Below are positions 26,992 through 35,113 of a stretch of DNA of 64,000 nucleotides, in pieces. The DNA lies in the IMG/VR virus record IMGVR_UViG_3300022177_000062, positions 10,593 through 74,592 of that record; one strand, written 5' to 3'. The translations under genes were made by a program, and so were the position numbers. Every line of letters starts with the position of its first letter. Position 1 is the first letter of the stretch. A model generated the notes under the pieces. The model was given only the letters and a program-made list of their open reading frames with translations. It was not told where the DNA came from and did not search any database. This DNA is from a virus.

Positions 26992-28598
26992 TGCAGGCCT
27001 TTCAGATCCAGAACGATACGATCAGTATGAACTTCAACCGGTGGACCCTTGAGGAATACCACCTATTTCTGAAGACGAAGCAGCTCCCCGAGTTTCAGCT
27101 CGCATACGACTGGCAATCCGACACATACAGAATCTCCTGTTCGGCCCGGTTCGCCCACATCCTCGGTTTTCAAGCAACGACGGAAGATCATGGTTGGCTC
27201 CCCCTGTCCGAATACCTCCTTGACTACCAGCGGTTCATCGTTGCGCAGGCCCTCAAAATCAAACGTTACGCCATATGGAGCTACACCGGCAGCGGCAAGA
27301 CCCCGATGTATCTGGAGTGGGCGCGCCAGGTCTCTCACAGAACAGGCGGCAAGGTTCTGCTTATCGTTCCCCTGAACATCATCAGGCAGACAATCGACAT
27401 GGCTCATAGGTTCTACGGGGACGGAATGGCCATTGAACAGATCGAGACGAGAGAGGCCCTGAAGGTTTGGTGTGCGGATGGGAAACCGACCACAGGAATA
27501 GTCAACCCCGAAAAGTTCATCCCCCGCAAAGAGGAATCGGAGGTCATATCGGAGATCCGGCATTGCGCCGGCGTTGTGCTTGATGAAGCCAGTCTGCTGA
27601 AAGCGGGCGGAGGAAAGATTAAGTGGGCATTGATAAAGTCCTGCAAGGGTATCGAATACAAGCTGGCATGTACAGCCACGCCAGCGCCCAATGACACCAT
27701 GGAATACGCCTCTCAGGGTTCCTTCCTTGAAAAGCTCCGGGATGAAGGCGAGATCCTGTGGACCTTCTTCAAACGGGACAAGGACGGCAACTGGAAGGTT
27801 AAGCAACACGCCGAAGCCGCTTTCTACCGGTTCATGGCGGGATGGTCAATCTATCTGAACGACCCGAAGAACTACGGCTTCCAGAATCACCTCAAGGACC
27901 TGCCGGATCCGGTAATCGAAGAATACAGAATCGAGATGACCCCGGAGCAAAGATCGTTCGCTCTGACCGATAATGATCGGTCCAAACGGGCTCAACTTTT
28001 CGTAGACCGCACGAAGCTGACGATGCCCAGAAGGATCGAGCTGTCCGAGGTCGCCAAGGGGTTTATCTACTCAAAAAAAGGCGCGACGAGGATACCGAGC
28101 CTCAAGCCTGCGTTCGTGGCCGACCTGGTAAGAAGGGACGTCATTCGTCACGAACTGCAGGTCCTTGTCTGGACTATCTTCGATGAAGAATCAACCATCA
28201 TAGCGGAACAGTTGCAGAACGAAACATTCACCGTTGAAACCCTTACAGGCAAGACGAGGGAAGCGGACCGTTTGGAGATCATCGAGCGGTTTAGAACGGG
28301 CAAAACCGACGTGCTGATATCGAAAGCCTCTCTCCTGGGTTTCGGCCTGAACTTCCAGATGTGCGGAAGCATGGTCTATTCGGGGATTAATGACAGTTTC
28401 GAGGAGCATTACCAGAGTATCCGGCGCGCGGTTCGTTATGGCCAGACAAAACAGGTCAAGGTCCACATCCCCTATATCCCCGAACTGGAAGGCGTCGTAT
28501 GGGACAACGTGAAGGCAAAGCAAGAAAAGTTCCTGCAGGGAATAGCGATGCAGGAAGCCGCATATATCGAAGCGATGAAAGGGGTACTAAATGTCTGA
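26991..28598 (+). CDS. SNF2-like SF2 helicase
   Basis: TGSGKT, LDEAS, TATPAPND, QSIRRAVRYGQ. Confidence 0.85.
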   Translation: MQAFQIQNDTISMNFNRWTLEEYHLFLKTKQLPEFQLAYDWQSDTYRISCSARFAHILGFQATTEDHGWLPLSEYLLDYQRFIVAQALKIKRYAIWSYTGSGKTPMYLEWARQVSHRTGGKVLLIVPLNIIRQTIDMAHRFYGDGMAIEQIETREALKVWCADGKPTTGIVNPEKFIPRKEESEVISEIRHCAGVVLDEASLLKAGGGKIKWALIKSCKGIEYKLACTATPAPNDTMEYASQGSFLEKLRDEGEILWTFFKRDKDGNWKVKQHAEAAFYRFMAGWSIYLNDPKNYGFQNHLKDLPDPVIEEYRIEMTPEQRSFALTDNDRSKRAQLFVDRTKLTMPRRIELSEVAKGFIYSKKGATRIPSLKPAFVADLVRRDVIRHELQVLVWTIFDEESTIIAEQLQNETFTVETLTGKTREADRLEIIERFRTGKTDVLISKASLLGFGLNFQMCGSMVYSGINDSFEEHYQSIRRAVRYGQTKQVKVHIPYIPELEGVVWDNVKAKQEKFLQGIAMQEAAYIEAMKGVLNV

Positions 28599-29670
28599 TG
28601 TACAAATCTGGAACTGTGACTGCGTACAGGGAATGGCCGATTTCCTGCCTGACAATTCTGTAGAATGTTGCATCACGTCTATACCGTTTGCGGCCCTCTT
28701 TTCATACAGCCACAAAACCGAAGACATCGGCAATTGCCAGGACTCCGATAACCTCATGTCCTGCCAGTTCTCGGTTCATATCCGGTATGCCTTTGAACAG
28801 CTATTCAGGGTTCTGAAACCGGGAAGCATATTTTGCTGTCATGTCCAACAGCTCCTGACATACAAGGTCCAGCACGGTTTTATGGGAATGCGAGACTTCC
28901 GCGGCGCCGTGATTAGCATGGCGCAGAACCACGGTTTTTTTCCCCACGGCGAAGTAGCCATAGTCAAGAACCCCCGGAACATAGCGAAACGGAACAACCT
29001 GCACTCGCTCATGTTCGTAACCGGGGCGCGCGATGCAAGGGCGTTGTCCCCGGCTATGAACGACTATGTCTTATTCTTCCGCAAGCCTGCCAGCGATGCA
29101 GACCCGGCCGGAAGGGTTCACGGAATCATCGAGACACAGAAGGAGATCATGCTTGTCGAACCATCCCCGATCATCGACTACATTGACCACGGCAATATCA
29201 AGCGGGTTAAGAAGGAGTATCGGGATATCCCGTATAAGATCGTCTCATTTGATGAACGGCTGGGAACCACAGTCACCCGGACCGTGACTGGCGGTGAAGG
29301 TATAAACCGGGACGGATGGTTCACGAAGGAGGATTGGATAAAGTGGGCTCACGGGTGTTGGACCGACATACTGGAAATCGACACTCTGGACGGGTACAAG
29401 TGTGCAAGAGAAAACGAGGAAGAAAAGCATGTCTGTCCTCTTCAACTCGAAGTGATCCGCCGCTGTATCAAGCTCTACACGAACCCAGGCGATACCGTCC
29501 TTGACCCCTTTATGGGTATTGGCAGCGTTGCCTACGTCGCAGTGGAGCAAGGCCGCAACGCCATCGGCTTCGAGCTGAAAGAGTCCTACCACCGCATGGC
29601 CTTGGCCAACATTGAGAAAGCCCAGAATGGTACGGGCCAACAAATATCCCTGTTCTCGGAGGCGATATGA
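28591..29670 (+). CDS. DNA N6-adenine/N4-cytosine methyltransferase (beta class)
   Basis: TSIPF (motif IV) precedes VLDPFMGIGS (motif I). Confidence 0.85.
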   Translation: MSDVQIWNCDCVQGMADFLPDNSVECCITSIPFAALFSYSHKTEDIGNCQDSDNLMSCQFSVHIRYAFEQLFRVLKPGSIFCCHVQQLLTYKVQHGFMGMRDFRGAVISMAQNHGFFPHGEVAIVKNPRNIAKRNNLHSLMFVTGARDARALSPAMNDYVLFFRKPASDADPAGRVHGIIETQKEIMLVEPSPIIDYIDHGNIKRVKKEYRDIPYKIVSFDERLGTTVTRTVTGGEGINRDGWFTKEDWIKWAHGCWTDILEIDTLDGYKCARENEEEKHVCPLQLEVIRRCIKLYTNPGDTVLDPFMGIGSVAYVAVEQGRNAIGFELKESYHRMALANIEKAQNGTGQQISLFSEAI

Positions 29671-30044
29671 TCGTTTACGTCTCATCCCCCTATTCTGCCG
29701 AGACCATGGAACAGGTCACGGCGAACGTGGCCTTTGCCAACGAAATAGGCAAACAGACGCTCGTTGCGGGGCACGTTCCCATTATCCCCCATGTCATGTC
29801 CGCGTTCTGGGACCTTGACGGCCGTCTTCAGAACTTCTCCCATGCTGACTGGATGTTCAAGTATGCCCTGCCCCTTCTGGAGATTGCCGATGCCATTCTC
29901 CTGGCCGGATCATGGGAATCCTCAAAGGGCTGTCTTATTGAGCTTGGCCGGGCAAGGGGCTTGGGTAAGAAAATCTTCTACGGCATGGACGAACTTAAAA
30001 AATACAAGGAGGTAATAGGTGAAGATAACCGGCATACAGCTTAA
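29667..30044 (+). CDS. DUF4406/nucleoside deoxyribosyltransferase-like protein
   Basis: VYVSSPYS...WESSKGCLIE. Confidence 0.6.
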   Translation: MIVYVSSPYSAETMEQVTANVAFANEIGKQTLVAGHVPIIPHVMSAFWDLDGRLQNFSHADWMFKYALPLLEIADAILLAGSWESSKGCLIELGRARGLGKKIFYGMDELKKYKEVIGEDNRHTA

Positions 30045-31569
30045 AAACTTTCTCATCTTCAAGGAACTGAAGCTCGGTGGTGATGATGCTCCCCTGTCAC
30101 CGCACATGAACCTGCTGATGGGCAAAAACAAGAAGGGTAAAACCGACGTCCTGAAGTCGATACCGGCCGGGCTATTCGGCAATCTCGATCCCTCGATGAT
30201 CCGAACCGGCGAAGAGAAGTCGGAGATCATCATTGACCTAGAAGCGTACAAGATCAGGCGCACGATCACCCAGAAGGGAACCAAGGGCCTCAAGGTGACG
30301 AGTACGGACGGGTCAGTCAACACGAGCCTCCAAACCTACATCGACAGCCTCATAGGAATCGCCGACAAGGAAAAAAGGGGCTTCCTGTTCAATCCGATCG
30401 CCCTGGTCCTCTCCGACGATAAAGCCAAATACCTGCGCGACCTCTTCAAGACCACGATGAAGCCCGAGGACCTGAAGGATATCCCCGAGGAATTCACGGA
30501 CGGCATCGACTACACGATGGACGGCATGGACATCATCAATCTCCTGGCCAACGAAAAGACCGGTCTCATCTACCGGAAGCGGGGAGAGCTGAACAAGGCC
30601 GCCGAACAGAAGCTGGCATTGCTGAACGGGAAGCTAGAGGCGATCAAGGGATTCGACGCGAACGCCTATCAACCCGGCGCAGTCGAGGAGCTGTCGAAAC
30701 AGATCGGCATTCTCAGGCAGGAAATCTCAAGTGCCGAAAAGCTACAGGAACTGGAAAAGAAGAACAAGCCGCTCCGGGAAGACCTCGAAAGGAAGATTGC
30801 GAGTGCCGAAGAGCTGTTGAAGGCCCTGAAGGGTGACAAGGAAATAGCTGACGAACGGGTCGTGCTCACCACGGAGATGGACGACATTCGCCGGCAGATC
30901 AGGGAGCTTCAGACGAGGCTTGAAGGAAAAGAAACGGCCCTCAAGGCTCTTGATGACACAAAGAAACAGCGCAAGGACCTCGAAGAGAGCCTGACGAACT
31001 GGCGGGAAACCCTTGAAGCCATCAAGATCAAGGACATGCCCGACATCGAGGAGTTGAACGTTCATCTTCAGGCCAAAGAGGCGGAACACGAAACCGCGCT
31101 GGCCGAAGAAGCAAAGTACGACCTGTGGCTTGAGGCTGAGCAGGACATCCGGCCCGAATACGAGAAGAAGAAGGCCGAAGCCGACAAGCTCACCGATAAC
31201 CTGAAGTACCTGCGGAAAGACCTCGCCACGAAGCTCACGAAGGAAGCCAACATACCCATCGACAACCTGCGTATCGAAGGAAACACCGTCTGGGTCGGCG
31301 ATATCAGCGTGGACAACATGAGCACCAGCGAACAGATGCTCATGGGGCTGGACATGACCAAGCGTCTGAACGCCGGTGCGCCCTTCCAGGTTCTCATTTG
31401 CGACCGTGTCGAATCCCTGGATGACGAGTCCTTTGCCGTTCTGCAACAGTGGGTTATCGAGAACGATTGTCAATTGTTCGCCAGCGCCGTCTATCATCGC
31501 GGTCAGGAGATTCCCGCCGGAGCATTGATAGTTGAGGATGGCACGGTGAGTAAGGCCGTCAACGAGTAA
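30019..31569 (+). CDS. SMC/Rad50-like AAA ATPase
   Basis: Walker A GKNKKGKT, long coiled coil, MSTSEQ signature, ICDRVE Walker B. Confidence 0.8.
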   Translation: MKITGIQLKNFLIFKELKLGGDDAPLSPHMNLLMGKNKKGKTDVLKSIPAGLFGNLDPSMIRTGEEKSEIIIDLEAYKIRRTITQKGTKGLKVTSTDGSVNTSLQTYIDSLIGIADKEKRGFLFNPIALVLSDDKAKYLRDLFKTTMKPEDLKDIPEEFTDGIDYTMDGMDIINLLANEKTGLIYRKRGELNKAAEQKLALLNGKLEAIKGFDANAYQPGAVEELSKQIGILRQEISSAEKLQELEKKNKPLREDLERKIASAEELLKALKGDKEIADERVVLTTEMDDIRRQIRELQTRLEGKETALKALDDTKKQRKDLEESLTNWRETLEAIKIKDMPDIEELNVHLQAKEAEHETALAEEAKYDLWLEAEQDIRPEYEKKKAEADKLTDNLKYLRKDLATKLTKEANIPIDNLRIEGNTVWVGDISVDNMSTSEQMLMGLDMTKRLNAGAPFQVLICDRVESLDDESFAVLQQWVIENDCQLFASAVYHRGQEIPAGALIVEDGTVSKAVNE

Positions 31570-31580
31570 TGATACTGCTC

Positions 31581-31670
31581 GGCTGGCTGGGCGCGGACAG
31601 GAGAGGCGTGGAAAGGAGAGGCGAGGCGCGGACAGGAGAGGCGTGGCGGGGCTAGGCTTGGCAGGCAAGG
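31581..31670 (+). repeat. Pentamer array 1: 15 in-register GG(C/A)NN units plus terminal GGCAGGCAAGG (candidate guide RNA)
   Basis: Intergenic; exact 5-nt phasing at 31585-31659. Confidence 0.85.
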
Positions 31671-31712
31671 AAGTAACACCCCTACGGGGGAAAATACACT
31701 AAGGAGGTCGCA

Positions 31713-32360
31713 ATGGCGACAGAAAAGAAAGCAGTAACAATTTCAGCACCGAAAATCAAAACGGCCGTATTCGAGATCACAGGCGTAGCGCCGCTGGTTA
31801 TCCATCGTTTCAGCGCGAAGACCAAGAACGAAATGAAACTGAAAATGGAAACTGGCAAGGCGGCATCAAGCAAGAAAAACAGAGAGGCCAAGAACACTGA
31901 CGACCTGTACAACGAGGCCCGGTACATCTCGCAGGAAGGTTGGGATGGGCTTCATGCTGGGGCGATCAGGGCCGCTCTTATCTCAGCATGCCGTCTCGTC
32001 GGGTTCAAAATGACCCTTGCCAAGTTGTCTGTGTTCGTCGTTCAGGATGGTTGGGACGCACAGGAACCCCAGATTCCGCTTATCCGCATCTACGGTGACC
32101 CTGTCAAGCAGGAAGACATGGCAAGGGTGGAAACAGGACAGCCGTATGTCACGGTCAGGGCGGCTTACCGGGACTGGAAAGCAAAGGTCAAAATTCGTTT
32201 CGATGAAGACCAGTTCACCATAGACGATATCTACAATCTGCTTTACCGGGTAGGTATGCAGGTCGGTGTCGGAGAGGGAAGACCGGACAGCAAGAAAAGC
32301 GTTGGCATGGGCTGGGGGCTGTTCGAGGTAAACGGAGGTGAGATACATGAAGGCAAATAA
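31713..32360 (+). CDS. RAMP/Cas7-like RNA-binding protein
   Basis: N-terminal FEITGVAPLVIH, central AGAIRAAL, C-terminal glycine loop GVGEGRP...GMGWGLFEV. Confidence 0.65.
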   Translation: MATEKKAVTISAPKIKTAVFEITGVAPLVIHRFSAKTKNEMKLKMETGKAASSKKNREAKNTDDLYNEARYISQEGWDGLHAGAIRAALISACRLVGFKMTLAKLSVFVVQDGWDAQEPQIPLIRIYGDPVKQEDMARVETGQPYVTVRAAYRDWKAKVKIRFDEDQFTIDDIYNLLYRVGMQVGVGEGRPDSKKSVGMGWGLFEVNGGEIHEGK

Positions 32361-32853
32361 CGCTGCAAAACAGATCAAAGAGCCGCTCACCGTATCAGAA
32401 GAACTTTTGTTTCTCAAAGACACGAACGGAGGGCTTCTTGACCCGGCAAAGGTTGTCGATTACGCACGAAACCCCGATACCGCCTTGCACACTCGCTTTG
32501 AATGGGATGATAGCAAGGCGGCGGAAGACTATCGTCTGTGGCAGGCGCGAAAGATCATCAGCCTTGAACTGGTGGTTATCCGCCAAAATATCGGAGAGGT
32601 TGCGCAGATCGTTGTCAACTTGGAAGAAAGAACTAACAAGGACAAACCTGTCAGGGCGTTTGTCTCTCTTAAGCAGGACAGGCGCGGTGACGAAGCCTGC
32701 GGATATCGAAGCATCTATGACGTACTGTCTGACGAGGGCTTGAGGAAGCAGCTACTGGATGAAGCCCGTGGTGATATGCGGATGTTCAAGAAAAAGTACG
32801 ACACGTTGAATGAATTGGCAAAGGTCTTTTCGGCCATGGAAGAGGTGCTGTAA
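32347..32853 (+). CDS. Conserved partner of the RAMP-like protein
   Basis: Overlaps the RAMP-like stop; LDPAKVVDYARNPDTALHTRFEWDDSKAAEDYRLWQAR. Confidence 0.6.
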   Translation: MKANNAAKQIKEPLTVSEELLFLKDTNGGLLDPAKVVDYARNPDTALHTRFEWDDSKAAEDYRLWQARKIISLELVVIRQNIGEVAQIVVNLEERTNKDKPVRAFVSLKQDRRGDEACGYRSIYDVLSDEGLRKQLLDEARGDMRMFKKKYDTLNELAKVFSAMEEVL

Positions 32854-32857
32854 CCAT

Positions 32858-32964
32858 GGCAACACGGCCCGGCTTGGAGTGGCTATGCAGGCAAGGAACG
32901 GCTTGGCACGGCGTGGCTCGGCGAGGCGTGGCGGGGAACGGTACGTCTGGGCGCGGCTAAGCAC
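32858..32964 (+). repeat. Pentamer array 2: 4 units, TGCAGGCAAGG, then a 14-unit in-register run (candidate guide RNA)
   Basis: Intergenic; 5-nt phasing at 32866-32885 and 32890-32959. Confidence 0.85.
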
Positions 32965-32999
32965 AAAACAAGATTAACAGCAAACGGAGATCAAACACT

Positions 33000-33557
33000 A
33001 TGGCTCATAAACACGCAAAACTTATCAGACGGGCATTCGCAAAATGTCCCCTTCTTATCGCCATGTACTCCCGTTTGGACAGCGAGACCTACAAAGGCAT
33101 TAAACGCAAGGGCAAGCTTTCCATCCTTGCGCCCGAGAAGCGACGGGTCTACCAGCACGCAAAGGGGTTGACCGCCCTTCTCGTCATTTGTTCCATCCTC
33201 CTTCTGTCAACGGGGCGTACACACCAGGCAAGAGCACAAAGCCCCGTTGACACCCTTGTTCCCGCAATCATCAAAGTGGAGTCGAACGGAAACCCGCGCG
33301 CAGTGAGCAAGAAAGGGGCAATCGGTCTGATGCAGGTGCGCTGGTGTGTCTGGAAGGACGAGTTGAAGAAAGCAGGCATAGCCAAACACAGGGGCGAACT
33401 ACTGGACCCAACGGTAAACGTACGGGCCGGTAAGTTCGTCCTTACTCACTATCTCAAGAAGCACCGGGGAGATGTCAGGAAAGCCCTGCACAGCTATTCA
33501 GGCGGGGCGAAGGGGTATTACAGGAAGGTAATGGAGGTGCACAATGATAAGCCTTAA
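33000..33557 (+). CDS. SLT-family lytic transglycosylase
   Basis: AIIKVESNGNPRAVSKKGAIGLMQV. Confidence 0.85.
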   Translation: MAHKHAKLIRRAFAKCPLLIAMYSRLDSETYKGIKRKGKLSILAPEKRRVYQHAKGLTALLVICSILLLSTGRTHQARAQSPVDTLVPAIIKVESNGNPRAVSKKGAIGLMQVRWCVWKDELKKAGIAKHRGELLDPTVNVRAGKFVLTHYLKKHRGDVRKALHSYSGGAKGYYRKVMEVHNDKP

Positions 33558-33602
33558 CAGGTCTCTTCCCGATGACGACGAGGAAGAGGAGGAGAGAGCA
33601 AG

Positions 33603-33788
33603 ATGAGCCACGGGACAAGAATGAAGCTATCGGGTATTGCGCTGGTGCTATTCACCCTCTTCTCTATCGGCCTGCTCTACAGATTGGGCTATCAGGACGG
33701 ATGGAACGACCGGGCGAAACGGGACAGTGGCACGTCGTTAACATATCGTAGCACTGTGGTCCTCGCTGGTCCGGGGGTGAACAGATGA
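33603..33788 (+). CDS. Small membrane protein
   Basis: One TM segment, GYQDGW. Confidence 0.5.
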   Translation: MSHGTRMKLSGIALVLFTLFSIGLLYRLGYQDGWNDRAKRDSGTSLTYRSTVVLAGPGVNR

Positions 33789-35113
33789 TTGCCGATGTCA
33801 TTATCAAGGCGGCTGGTATGGAACCGCCCGAATCGCAGCCCTATTTCCCCCGGCCAAGCGGTGCCGGACCGGAAAGGTGCATGAGACAGATGGTCTACCA
33901 TGCTCTCGGGATCGCCCCGGATCAGAAGCGGAATGATCGCTTCATCCTGGTGCTCGATGATTCAAGCATTCACGAAACGCTCACCGAGGACTGGCTGAAC
34001 AAGACGGTCTTTCAGCTCCACAGTCAGCAAATGGCGGTCAACCTCGACTTAACAGACATGTTCCCGGATGCCAGGGAGTGGATACCGGAAAGAATCTGTG
34101 AGACCTGCGCCAAGCTCGTGGAGAGCGGAGCCCTGCAACCGGGTAGCGAGATTATTCCGGCCGGTATCATTCATGGTCACATCGACGGCATCGTCACGGA
34201 CATGATGTTCGTGGATACCCACTACGAGCACAAGGGCCTCAATCATTTCACGTTCGAGAAAATCTGGAATAGCGAAGCCTTTCCGCAGGACTATATCACG
34301 CAATGCTGCATCTACCAGCGCGGTATCAGGGTCAATCTCAATCCGGACATAACCCGTAGCGTTCTGTTAATCAAGAACAAGAACACCGCGGCGTACATGG
34401 ATTTCCTCATCGAGTATGATCTTGAAACCGATACCGCCTATATCATCGAGATGTCCCGGTCCAGCGGCGAAAAGGTCGTGGGAAGCCGGGAAGAACCGAT
34501 CTTCGTCATGGAAAACATCGTAAGAAACGCCATGGCCAAGTTCAGGGAAGTCTATATCCACGTTCAGAACGGGACCTTCCCGGACCGGCAGTATGAACTT
34601 TCCGACTGGCAGTGTCAGTATTGCCCATGGGGAAATATCGAAGGCACATGCTGGCAGGGATTCGAGGAAGAGTATAACGCCCTTGGAGCGAACGGCGTCC
34701 TCGACGGGATAGAGGACATACTTGCAAAATACATTCAGGCCAACGCGGATCTCGGGACCAAGAGGAATCCCGGCTTTGAACAGGAATACATCGACCTCAA
34801 GGGCAAGATCATCGCGCTGTTCGATCAGGCCAACGAATTCCTGCGAACCAACCTGCCGGAACTCTGTGCCTATTACCTCGAAACAAAGGGCCACATAGAC
34901 GCCCTTGAAGGCGAGAAGGAAGCGGTCAAAACGGAAGTGCGCGACCTTCTCCGGGAGAACCGTGTGCGTAAGGCCACGGCAGGTCCCTATGTTGTCGATG
35001 ATCGCCTTGATAAGTATTCATACCTGAACCGGGACAAACTTGATCCTGCCGCCGTCATACAGGCCACAGAGCAGCGTTTCAAACGTGTCCTGACCATCAG
35101 GAGACCAAAATAA
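33785..35113 (+). CDS. Cas4/RecB-like PD-(D/E)XK exonuclease
   Basis: RPS...C.RQ..Y, GHIDG, EHK, Q...Y, CQYCPW...C. Confidence 0.75.
   Translation: MIADVIIKAAGMEPPESQPYFPRPSGAGPERCMRQMVYHALGIAPDQKRNDRFILVLDDSSIHETLTEDWLNKTVFQLHSQQMAVNLDLTDMFPDAREWIPERICETCAKLVESGALQPGSEIIPAGIIHGHIDGIVTDMMFVDTHYEHKGLNHFTFEKIWNSEAFPQDYITQCCIYQRGIRVNLNPDITRSVLLIKNKNTAAYMDFLIEYDLETDTAYIIEMSRSSGEKVVGSREEPIFVMENIVRNAMAKFREVYIHVQNGTFPDRQYELSDWQCQYCPWGNIEGTCWQGFEEEYNALGANGVLDGIEDILAKYIQANADLGTKRNPGFEQEYIDLKGKIIALFDQANEFLRTNLPELCAYYLETKGHIDALEGEKEAVKTEVRDLLRENRVRKATAGPYVVDDRLDKYSYLNRDKLDPAAVIQATEQRFKRVLTIRRPK

What the first reader, a model, noticed from the sequence alone, without database searches (positions are those of the whole stretch)
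31585..31670. Array 1 dinucleotide code with an internal 20-nt duplication
Seen: 15 units with NN = TG GC CA GA GT AA GA GA GC CA GA GT GG TA TT, then GGCAGGCAAGG. Six of the 15 units use GGA. The block GGCGC GGACA GGAGA GGCGT occurs twice (31590-31609 and 31625-31644). Inference: guides evolve by in-register slippage or recombination of whole pentamers, with no spacer acquisition needed. If every third target base is skipped, the target is TGnGCnCAnGAnGTnAAnGAnGAnGCnCAnGAnGTnGGnTAnTT, which would be blind to codon wobble positions.
Basis: partly seen in the sequence, partly recalled or inferred. Interest (0 to 1): 0.8.

Follow-up and report, generated by a model that had tools for sequence, protein, structure and literature searches.

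The report
Phage VIPR guide-RNA array
The five-base-periodic GG tract is a guide-RNA gene of a phage VIPR system, a CRISPR-like RNA-guided DNA silencer first described in 2026 preprints, so the pattern is real but already explained.

Summary
Window 31585-31664 holds 16 in-phase GGNNN units. Six of the first 15 are GGA. A 20-nt block occurs twice, 35 nt apart. Chance expectation for such a run is about 2e-13.

The array lies directly upstream of a 215-aa gene. Its model (pLDDT 93) is a Cas7/Csm3-like RAMP (Z 12.9). Its five best AlphaFold-DB cluster hits are exactly the five seed proteins that define the Vipr family in bioRxiv 10.64898/2026.04.26.720920. The locus is therefore a VIPR system: vipr, an accessory gene and flanking vrRNA arrays.

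In 80 related phage contigs, 69 carry such arrays on the vipr strand, against 4 on the other strand. Arrays differ completely between Vipr proteins that are 98% identical. In near-identical loci all four array substitutions fall on an N position. Multi-unit block duplications are about 28 times more frequent than unit shuffles give.

I found no target for this guide in the searches open to me; all hits were at chance level.

Local peculiarities are frequent GGA units, although the SUSP1 structure excludes purines there, a G-loop 8 residues longer, and staggered junctions. This scan has met VIPR arrays on other DNA at least eight times. Verdict: new member of a known kind.

The parts
31581..31585 (+). 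Junction-like GGCTG. Its last G is the first G of array 1, a 1-nt overlap like the GGCAG junctions of staggered arrays.
   Evidence: Sequence. Compare the junctions in related loci and the legend of Fig. S18 of the discovery preprint.
31585..31664 (+). vrRNA array 1: 16 in-phase GG(C/A)NN pentamers. The variable NN read TG GC CA GA GT AA GA GA GC CA GA GT GG TA TT AG. The last unit, GGCAG, is the conserved junction unit.
   Evidence: It is predicted unstructured as RNA (z +1.09). The length lies within the published range of 9-16 units.
31590..31609 (+). First copy of the duplicated 4-unit block GGCGC GGACA GGAGA GGCGT.
31625..31644 (+). Second copy of the same block, 35 nt (7 units) downstream. 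That would correspond to 21 bp in target space under the 1-nt-skip rule.
31664..31700 (+). Staggered junction remnant GGCAA GGAAG, then the short tail TAACAC with a small hairpin CCCC-TAC-GGGG (31679-31690). The motif GCAGGCAAGGAA recurs in array 2. The motif GGCAGRCAAGGRAAGTAACA is shared with locus L001.
31701..31707 (+). Shine-Dalgarno AAGGAGG of vipr.
31713..32360 (+). vipr: 215-aa minimal RAMP (Cas7/Csm3-like) protein with a G-rich loop, VGVGEGRPDSKKSVGMGWG.
   Evidence: AF2 model pLDDT 93. VIA Z 12.9 to Csm3. The top-5 AFDB clusters are the five published Vipr seeds. 24.6% identity to SUSP1 Vipr, E 2.7e-10. hhalign probability 95%.
32347..32853 (+). vap-like accessory gene (168 aa from the ATG; the ORF with a GTG start begins at 32338). 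It overlaps the end of vipr. Weak winged-helix-like fold.
   Evidence: phrog_15946. Homologs lie downstream of vipr in about 71 of 80 related loci. Model pLDDT 86. VIA Z 5-6.4 to wHTH proteins. No similarity to SUSP1 vap1.
32866..32890 (+). Array 2a: GGCCC GGCTT GGAGT GGCTA plus the degenerate junction unit TGCAG.
32890..32964 (+). Array 2b: 11 strict units (32890-32944), then degenerate units GTCTG GGCGC GGCTA AGCAC. It shares the 14-nt GAGGCGTGGCGGGG with array 1.

Best explanation
Array 1 is the gene for a guide RNA (vrRNA) of a phage-encoded VIPR system.

Inferred by homology to SUSP1 VIPR: the array is transcribed with the operon. One Vipr protomer (the 215-aa RAMP encoded just downstream) binds each pentamer, forming a helical filament. 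The constant GG and the third base are flipped into protein pockets. The two variable bases of each unit are presented for pairing with double-stranded DNA, with one target base skipped between dinucleotides. The predicted target is TGnGCnCAnGAnGTnAAnGAnGAnGCnCAnGAnGTnGGnTAnTT on either strand. In coding DNA the skipped base tends to be the wobble position. Binding silences transcription of a competing mobile element.

Shown here: the array, its strand and its position; the RAMP fold and Vipr-family membership of the neighbouring protein; conservation of the protein-plus-array pairing across a large phage clade; hypervariable NN against constant GG.

Not shown here: transcription, processing, RNP formation, the skip rule in this clade, and the target.
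For: (1) There are 16 phase-locked GGNNN units, intergenic, on the coding strand, 49 nt upstream of vipr.

(2) The vipr model has pLDDT 93. PDB hits are Csm3/Cmr4/Cas7, with VIA Z up to 12.9, rmsd 3.1 A over 155 residues. The five best AFDB clusters (X1U2U4, A0A0F9A1L0, A0A661D0E2, A0A2D6XG06, A0A1F4YLN4; E 9e-14 to 6e-8) are exactly the five seeds named in the discovery preprint.

(3) There is direct homology to the experimentally studied SUSP1 Vipr. BLASTP gives E 2.7e-10. In hhalign, window R149, E188 and R190 align to the RNA-contact residues R138, D177 and R179. By eye, H31 aligns to H17.

(4) Of 80 IMG/VR loci with a Vipr homolog, 69 have runs of 5 or more units on the vipr strand, against 4 on the opposite strand. 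The same accessory gene follows in about 71 of 80.

(5) Unit composition is GG fixed; position 3 is C 73%, T 16%, A 7%, G 3.5%; positions 4-5 are variable, with every base at 16-35%.

(6) Loci whose Vipr is 98% identical carry entirely different arrays. Among six near-identical loci there are no substitutions in vipr. All four array substitutions fall at pentamer position 5 of a single guide.

(7) One-nt-overlap GGCAG junctions match the 'staggered arrays' of the preprint.

(8) The array RNA is predicted unstructured, as expected for a protein-coated guide.

(9) The contig is a virus record with phage genes and has no CRISPR-like repeats.
Against: Six of 16 units have A at position 3. The SUSP1 structure says the position-3 pocket sterically excludes purines. 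The clade average for A is 7% (P = 7e-4), so array 1 could bind Vipr poorly. However, other loci of the clade reach 29-40% GGA, and the G-loop differs from SUSP1: W178 aligns to an invariant Gly, and there is an 8-residue insertion.

There is no SUSP1-type structured 3' tail or pseudoknot, only a 4-bp hairpin.

No expression data could be obtained.
Confidence: 0.88

Rival explanations
1. Array 1 is a VIPR-type array that is decaying or not used for targeting. It would be a product of recent in-register duplication with many purine-containing GGA units that Vipr binds poorly, and it would have no live target.
For: Array 1 has 6/16 GGA against 7% in the clade. SUSP1 Vipr excludes purines at position 3. 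The internal 20-nt duplication and the three copies of GGAMA-GGAGA-GGCGW make it lower in information than a typical guide.
Against: The phase is perfect over 16 units and ends in the canonical GGCAG junction. Decay would break the GG phase first, as in the degenerate units of array 2. GGA-rich arrays recur in other loci of the clade (L016 32%, L083 29%, L089 35%). That points to tolerance of A in this clade.
Confidence: 0.07
2. The array is mainly a cis-acting leader. Vipr coats the pentamers on the vipr mRNA and so autoregulates translation of its own gene, in the way T4 gp32 or TRAP bind periodic motifs in leaders. It would not act in trans as a guide.
For: The array lies 49 nt upstream of the vipr start codon on the same strand, with no sigma-70-like promoter or terminator between them. 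Several units (GGAGA) resemble Shine-Dalgarno sequences.
Against: Related loci place arrays downstream of vap, or between vipr and vap, as often as upstream. The NN bases are hypervariable, and arrays are replaced between near-identical proteins. A pure protein-binding site has no need for that. In SUSP1 the homologous RNAs are processed to about 100 nt and act in trans.
Confidence: 0.03
3. The tract is a structural nucleic-acid element independent of Vipr. It could be a string of two-tetrad G-quadruplexes (GG-N3 repeats), or a DNA-level iteron or origin element of the replication module in which it sits.
For: GG every 5 nt can in principle form G2 quadruplexes. The array sits among replication and recombination genes (helicase, AAA_23 ATPase, Cas4/RecE-like nuclease).
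Against: Quadruplexes do not need a strict 3-nt loop or a near-absence of G at position 3. The element co-occurs with vipr in 69 of 80 loci whatever the neighbouring genes are (L010-L015 have a different context). It is strictly strand-specific relative to vipr.
Confidence: 0.02

Closest known systems
VIPR systems (Vipr protein + vap + vrRNA), bioRxiv 10.64898/2026.04.26.720920. Structures are in 10.64898/2026.04.26.720927 and phage-satellite competition in 10.64898/2026.10.15.759431.
   Same: It is phage-encoded. It has a minimal single-RRM RAMP with a G-loop and thumb, and a two-gene vipr-vap operon. Guide arrays of pentamers with constant GG and hypervariable NN flank the genes on the same strand. 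Array length lies within 9-16 units. Junctions are staggered with a 1-nt overlap, as in the preprint's Fig. S18. There is no self-target in the contig, as the preprint also reports.
   Different: Position 3 is C, A or T rather than a pyrimidine only (30% A in this locus). The G-loop is 8 residues longer, and the Trp that stacks on G2 in SUSP1 aligns to Gly. I could not assign the VIPR type (I-VII), because the figures and tables are not held. No target was found.
Type II VIPR of Escherichia phage SUSP1 (KT454805; vipr at 28474-29061, minus strand) and the P. fulva prophage.
   Same: Vipr is homologous (24.6% identity, E 2.7e-10). One array lies upstream of vipr and arrays lie downstream of vap. 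Units are GGYNN.
   Different: Each SUSP1 vrRNA ends in a roughly 40-nt conserved structured tail with a pseudoknot and is GGT-rich. Here arrays abut through GGCAG junctions with only a 4-bp hairpin after array 1. The vap proteins show no detectable similarity.
Class 1 CRISPR-Cas backbone proteins (Csm3/Cmr4/Cas7) with crRNA.
   Same: The RAMP fold is shared (Z 12.9). A protein filament forms along a guide RNA with periodic thumb-induced base flipping.
   Different: There is no repeat-spacer array and no cas genes in the ten neighbouring genes scanned. The guide period is 5 nt with only 2 pairing bases, instead of 6 nt with 5 pairing bases. By homology it acts through DNA binding and silencing rather than cleavage.
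TRAP (trp RNA-binding attenuation protein) and other oligomeric proteins that read periodic short RNA motifs.
   Same: One protein subunit reads each short motif, repeated every 5 nt or so, on single-stranded RNA.
   Different: The fold is unrelated. TRAP motifs carry no variable information and serve cis-regulation. I considered this only before the RAMP fold and the VIPR literature were found.

Membership tests
VIPR system | A Vipr protein: a minimal RAMP with an RRM core, a glycine-rich loop and a thumb, related to the published seeds. | tested here: met
   AF2 pLDDT 93. The AFDB top-5 are the five published seeds. VIA Z 12.9 to Csm3. The G-loop has invariant G181, G189, R190, G198 and G202. 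Homology to SUSP1 Vipr.
VIPR system | A minimal locus (vipr plus an accessory vap gene) without a CRISPR array or cas genes. | tested here: met
   vipr 31713-32360 overlaps the next gene, 32347-32853. The ten neighbouring genes have no cas domains. The 76.6-kb contig has no CRISPR-like repeat family. I did not scan every gene of the contig for cas domains.
VIPR system | Intergenic arrays of 9-16 pentamer repeats with conserved GGY and hypervariable NN, beside vipr and on its strand. | tested here: met
   16 and 11 units. Clade statistics. Substitutions only at N positions in near-identical loci. The deviation is A at position 3 in 8 of 27 units here. The preprint does allow 'NNNGG' variants.
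VIPR system | Encoded by a phage or provirus. | tested here: met
   The source is a virus record of 76,657 bases. The neighbours have phage-family matches.
VIPR system | vrRNAs are expressed as discrete small RNAs that co-purify with Vipr. | not testable with these tools
No RNA data were available.
VIPR system | Natural targets match the NN under the 1-nt-skip rule (at least 80% NN match), enriched over other skip lengths. | tested here: inconclusive
   No excess over shuffles in the contig or in 0.55 Mb of related loci with 91 guides. In IMG/VR and metagenome seed scans the extension beyond the seed was at chance level. The best hits were 23/30 and 25/30, the latter expected about 0.6 times by chance. 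There were 0 hits in 401 genomes at 3 or fewer mismatches. These searches needed exact seeds, so imperfect targets would be missed.
Type II VIPR (SUSP1 / P. fulva clade) | Each vrRNA ends in a conserved structured 3' tail (a pseudoknot in SUSP1). | tested here: not met
   After array 1 there is only GGCAAGGAAGTAACAC plus a 4-bp hairpin. Arrays in relatives abut directly through GGCAG junctions. SUSP1's tails are visible.
Type II VIPR (SUSP1 / P. fulva clade) | A vap1-type accessory protein. | tested here: not met
   No BLASTP hit at E below 100. hhalign probability 0.4%.
CRISPR-Cas class 1 | A repeat-spacer array and a multi-gene cas operon around the Cas7-like protein. | tested here: not met
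   No CRISPR-like repeats. The neighbours are a helicase, a methylase, an ATPase, a transglycosylase and a nuclease.

The most novel reading that the evidence does not exclude
This Vipr clade reads a relaxed GGH/NN unit. Adenine at position 3 is accepted because the G-loop is remodelled: it has an 8-residue insertion, and the Trp that stacks on G2 in SUSP1 is replaced by an invariant Gly. In addition, guides in this clade diversify without any acquisition machinery, by in-register duplication or exchange of multi-unit blocks followed by point changes confined to the N positions. Array 1, with its 7-unit duplication, would be a recent example caught in the act.
Probability: 0.35. Interest if true: 0.45.

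Novelty: new member of a known kind. Interest (0 to 1): 0.35.

Why it matters
That logic is a guide RNA storing target information in two of every five bases and reading DNA with one base skipped.

For VIPR biology the locus adds modest points.

- It belongs to a large, uncultivated clade: 4,680 proteins in the large collection, and 545 confirmed among at least 599 candidate stretches in IMG/VR. This clade has its own accessory protein and staggered arrays.
- It uses A at position 3 often, which the SUSP1 structure would forbid.
- It gives sequence-level hints on how guides change: block duplication, NN-only substitution, and complete array turnover between proteins that are 98% identical. The preprints I read do not treat that question.

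It does not open a new kind of system.

Tried and rejected
Initial ideas, before the literature hit, were a TRAP/CsrA-like protein-binding RNA, a gp32-like autoregulatory leader, G-quadruplexes, and iterons. I set these aside after the RAMP fold, the clade-wide linkage of vipr and arrays, and the VIPR preprints.

- Rfam: no family in 30500-34000 and no hammerhead between arrays.
- GenBank phage DNA: no nucleotide match to 30019-33557.
- Self-targeting: no hit above 200 NN-order shuffles for skip 0, 1 or 2 in the 76.6-kb contig. Skip 3 only finds the array itself.
- Clade test of the skip rule: 91 guides of 9 or more units against 0.55 Mb of fetched loci with arrays masked. No skip length beat the shuffles. 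The target space is far too small to count against the rule.
- IMG/VR exact scans of array 1 under skip 1: units 1-10 and 6-15 gave 0 hits. Units 1-8 and 8-15 gave 6 and 9 hits in mixed frames and unrelated genes, with the best full-length match at 23/30.
- Array 2b: a 9-unit seed (units 2-10) gave 0 hits.
- Metagenome scan of units 5-13: 61 seeds. The extension matched about 3.4 of 14 bases on average, which is chance. The best was L163 at 25/30, expected about 0.6 times by chance.
- Test of the idea that the duplicated guide matches a 21-bp-periodic target (two copies of GCnCAnGAnGT 21 nt apart): 82 hits. They come from several unrelated 21-nt tandem-repeat families, the extension is at chance level, and the best match is 23/30. 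I rejected the idea as unsupported.
- 401 genomes of the phylum of a MAG that carries a close Vipr homolog: 0 matches at 3 or fewer mismatches. The host of this phage is unknown, so the sample may be irrelevant.
- vap: no Pfam family and no Foldseek PDB match. Only middling winged-helix similarity (Z 5-6.4), which may be just a common arrangement.
- The pairwise count of 'substitutions by phase' across all loci is biased, because unrelated GGC-rich arrays align in phase. I rely only on the near-identical loci.

Full report
**Observation.**
Window 31585-31664 reads as 16 consecutive five-base units that all begin with GG.

With a GG frequency of 0.08, the expected number of such runs in 64 kb is about 2e-13. 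Thirty first-order shuffles never exceeded 6 units. In the whole 76,657-base contig the only other long run, on either strand, is array 2 at 32890-32944 with 11 units.

Both arrays are intergenic and lie on the coding strand of a long plus-strand operon. In order, the operon holds a helicase, a DNA methylase, a nucleoside 2-deoxyribosyltransferase-like gene, an AAA_23 ATPase, array 1, a 215-aa gene, a 168-171-aa gene, array 2, an SLT transglycosylase and a Cas4/RecE-like nuclease.

**What it is.**
[quoted passage not shown] It describes VIPR systems, which consist of:
- a minimal RAMP protein (Vipr);
- an accessory gene (vap);
- vrRNAs built of 9-16 pentamers with constant GGY and hypervariable NN.

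In those systems the NN pair with double-stranded DNA while one target base is skipped, usually the codon wobble position. I tested the defining features here.

The 215-aa protein has no Pfam family but belongs to a very large family: 4,680 proteins in the large collection and 2,170 clusters at 50% identity.
- Fold: its AlphaFold2 model is confident, with pLDDT 93.
- Solved structures: Foldseek and VIA-align place it with Csm3/Cmr4/Cas7, with Z up to 12.9 and rmsd 3.1 A over 155 residues.
- Published seeds: its five best AlphaFold-DB clusters are X1U2U4, A0A0F9A1L0, A0A661D0E2, A0A2D6XG06 and A0A1F4YLN4. These are the five proteins the preprint names as the founding Vipr hits.
- SUSP1 Vipr: the studied protein (KT454805, 28474-29061, minus strand) aligns at 24.6% identity, E 2.7e-10.
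- RNA-contact residues: in a profile alignment (probability 95%), residues that contact the RNA in the SUSP1 cryo-EM structures are kept. R138 aligns to R149, D177 to E188 and R179 to R190. By eye, H17 aligns to H31.

The next gene overlaps the end of vipr. A homolog follows vipr in about 71 of 80 related loci. Its model resembles winged-helix DNA binders only weakly (Z 5-6.4). It is unrelated in sequence to SUSP1 vap1.

**Comparative evidence for the array.**
Of 80 IMG/VR loci that encode a Vipr homolog (49-84% identity), 69 carry runs of 5 or more in-phase GG units on the vipr strand. Only 4 carry such a run on the other strand, and each of those is a single 5-unit run.

Over about 2,250 units, position 3 is C 73%, T 16%, A 7% and G 3.5%. 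Positions 4 and 5 are variable, with every base at 16-35%.

Adjacent arrays are joined through a GGCAG unit whose last G is the first G of the next array. This is the 'staggered array with 1-nt overlap' of the preprint's Fig. S18. The same GCAGGCAAGGAA splits array 2 into a short part 2a and a long part 2b.

As RNA, array 1 is predicted to be less structured than its shuffles (z +1.09). No sigma-70-like promoter or terminator lies in or next to the arrays. They are therefore probably co-transcribed with the operon and then processed. That step is an inference.

**How guides change.**
Six metagenome loci whose Vipr is 98% identical to the window's carry a completely different array. It is about 400 nt with five guides upstream, and there is none downstream. 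Arrays therefore turn over much faster than the protein.

Among those six near-identical loci, 1,650 aligned bases hold 14 variable sites. None is in vipr. Four are in the arrays, and all four are at pentamer position 5 of one guide. By my calculation, the chance of all four falling on position 5 is 0.0016, and of all four falling on an N position 0.026.

In-phase repeated blocks of 4 units occur 17 times in 65 distinct loci, against 0.6 expected when units are shuffled within loci. They lie at distances of 10, 35 (the window), 39, 97, 161, 191, 1007 and 1382 nt.

It does not show slippage as the mechanism. The preprints I read do not discuss the origin of new guides.

**The target.**
- Own contig: nothing above 200 shuffles for skip 0-2. 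This agrees with the preprint's report of no self-targeting.
- Related loci: no enrichment at any skip length for 91 guides against 0.55 Mb.
- IMG/VR: no exact 10-unit match.
- Shorter seeds: 8- and 9-unit seeds in IMG/VR and in JGI metagenome contigs gave hit numbers and extension scores at chance level. The best were 23/30, and 25/30 where about 0.6 such hits are expected by chance.
- Periodic target: a scan for two copies of GCnCAnGAnGT 21 nt apart returned 82 hits. They came from several unrelated 21-nt tandem-repeat families, again with chance-level extension.
- Bacterial genomes: 401 genomes gave no hit at 3 or fewer mismatches.

Because these scans need exact seeds and the host is unknown, this is no evidence against the code. 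It means only that the target of this guide is unidentified.

**Peculiarities.**
Eight of the 27 units in the window have A at position 3, including six of the 16 in array 1. The clade average is 7% (P = 7e-4 for array 1). In SUSP1 the position-3 pocket 'sterically excludes purines'.

GGA-rich arrays recur in other loci of the clade (29-40%). The G-loop of this clade carries an 8-residue insertion, and the Trp that stacks on G2 in SUSP1 aligns to an invariant Gly. A relaxed GGH unit is therefore plausible, but it is untested.

The alternative is that array 1 is a weakened guide made by recent duplication. I keep this as the main rival.

**Comparison and verdict.**
The locus meets the defining features of a VIPR system that can be tested in silico. 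It does not meet two features specific to the SUSP1 type II clade: the structured 3' tail and vap1. I could not assign a type, because the preprint's figures and tables are not held.

VIPR is described in three preprints of 2026. This scan has already identified VIPR arrays in at least eight other windows. The finding is therefore a new member of a known kind.

Noticed in passing
L010-L015 (metagenome contigs; e.g. L010:820-1275): These loci encode a Vipr 98% identical to the window's. They carry a different, roughly 400-nt upstream array of five staggered guides and no downstream array. The only array polymorphisms among them are four changes at pentamer position 5 of one guide.
   Followed up: yes
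L248, L238, L226, L225, L221, L208, L190, L182, L176, L233, L229 (IMG/VR contigs): A 21-bp tandem repeat, TGGGCGCAAGACGTACCTTTT, recurs in at least 11 viral contigs. It matches array 1 under the 1-nt-skip rule at only 20/30 bases, which is chance level. What the repeat is remains unexamined.
   Followed up: no
GenBank phages: Cyanophage Cy-LDV1 BK059895.1 31484-32095; Mycobacterium phages such as Brocalys NC_031262.1 32888-33478; Gordonia phages such as Ecliptus OP820472.1 10383-10922: Homologs of the window's Vipr (52% and about 32% identity) are annotated as hypothetical proteins in cultured phages. These phages would be tractable hosts for testing this Vipr clade. I did not check their flanks for arrays.
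   Followed up: no
window 28591-30044: A DNA methylase and a nucleoside 2-deoxyribosyltransferase-like gene (DUF7768/phrog_355) lie next to a DEAD/ResIII-type (superfamily 2) helicase, just upstream of the VIPR cassette. This may be a DNA-modification or anti-restriction module.
   Followed up: no
window 32347-32853: The accessory protein has no Pfam family and no Foldseek match in the PDB. Residues 10-137 resemble winged-helix DNA-binding domains only at Z 5-6.4. Its invariant residues are H48, F51, W53, A58, R63 and A67.
   Followed up: partly
L163:7-53 (Ga0209324_10108050): This is the best gapped match to array 1 found anywhere (25/30 NN bases, units 5-13 perfect). It lies inside a minus-strand ORF at the end of a 1.9-kb AT-rich metagenome contig. 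About 0.6 such hits are expected by chance among the 61 seeds.
   Followed up: partly
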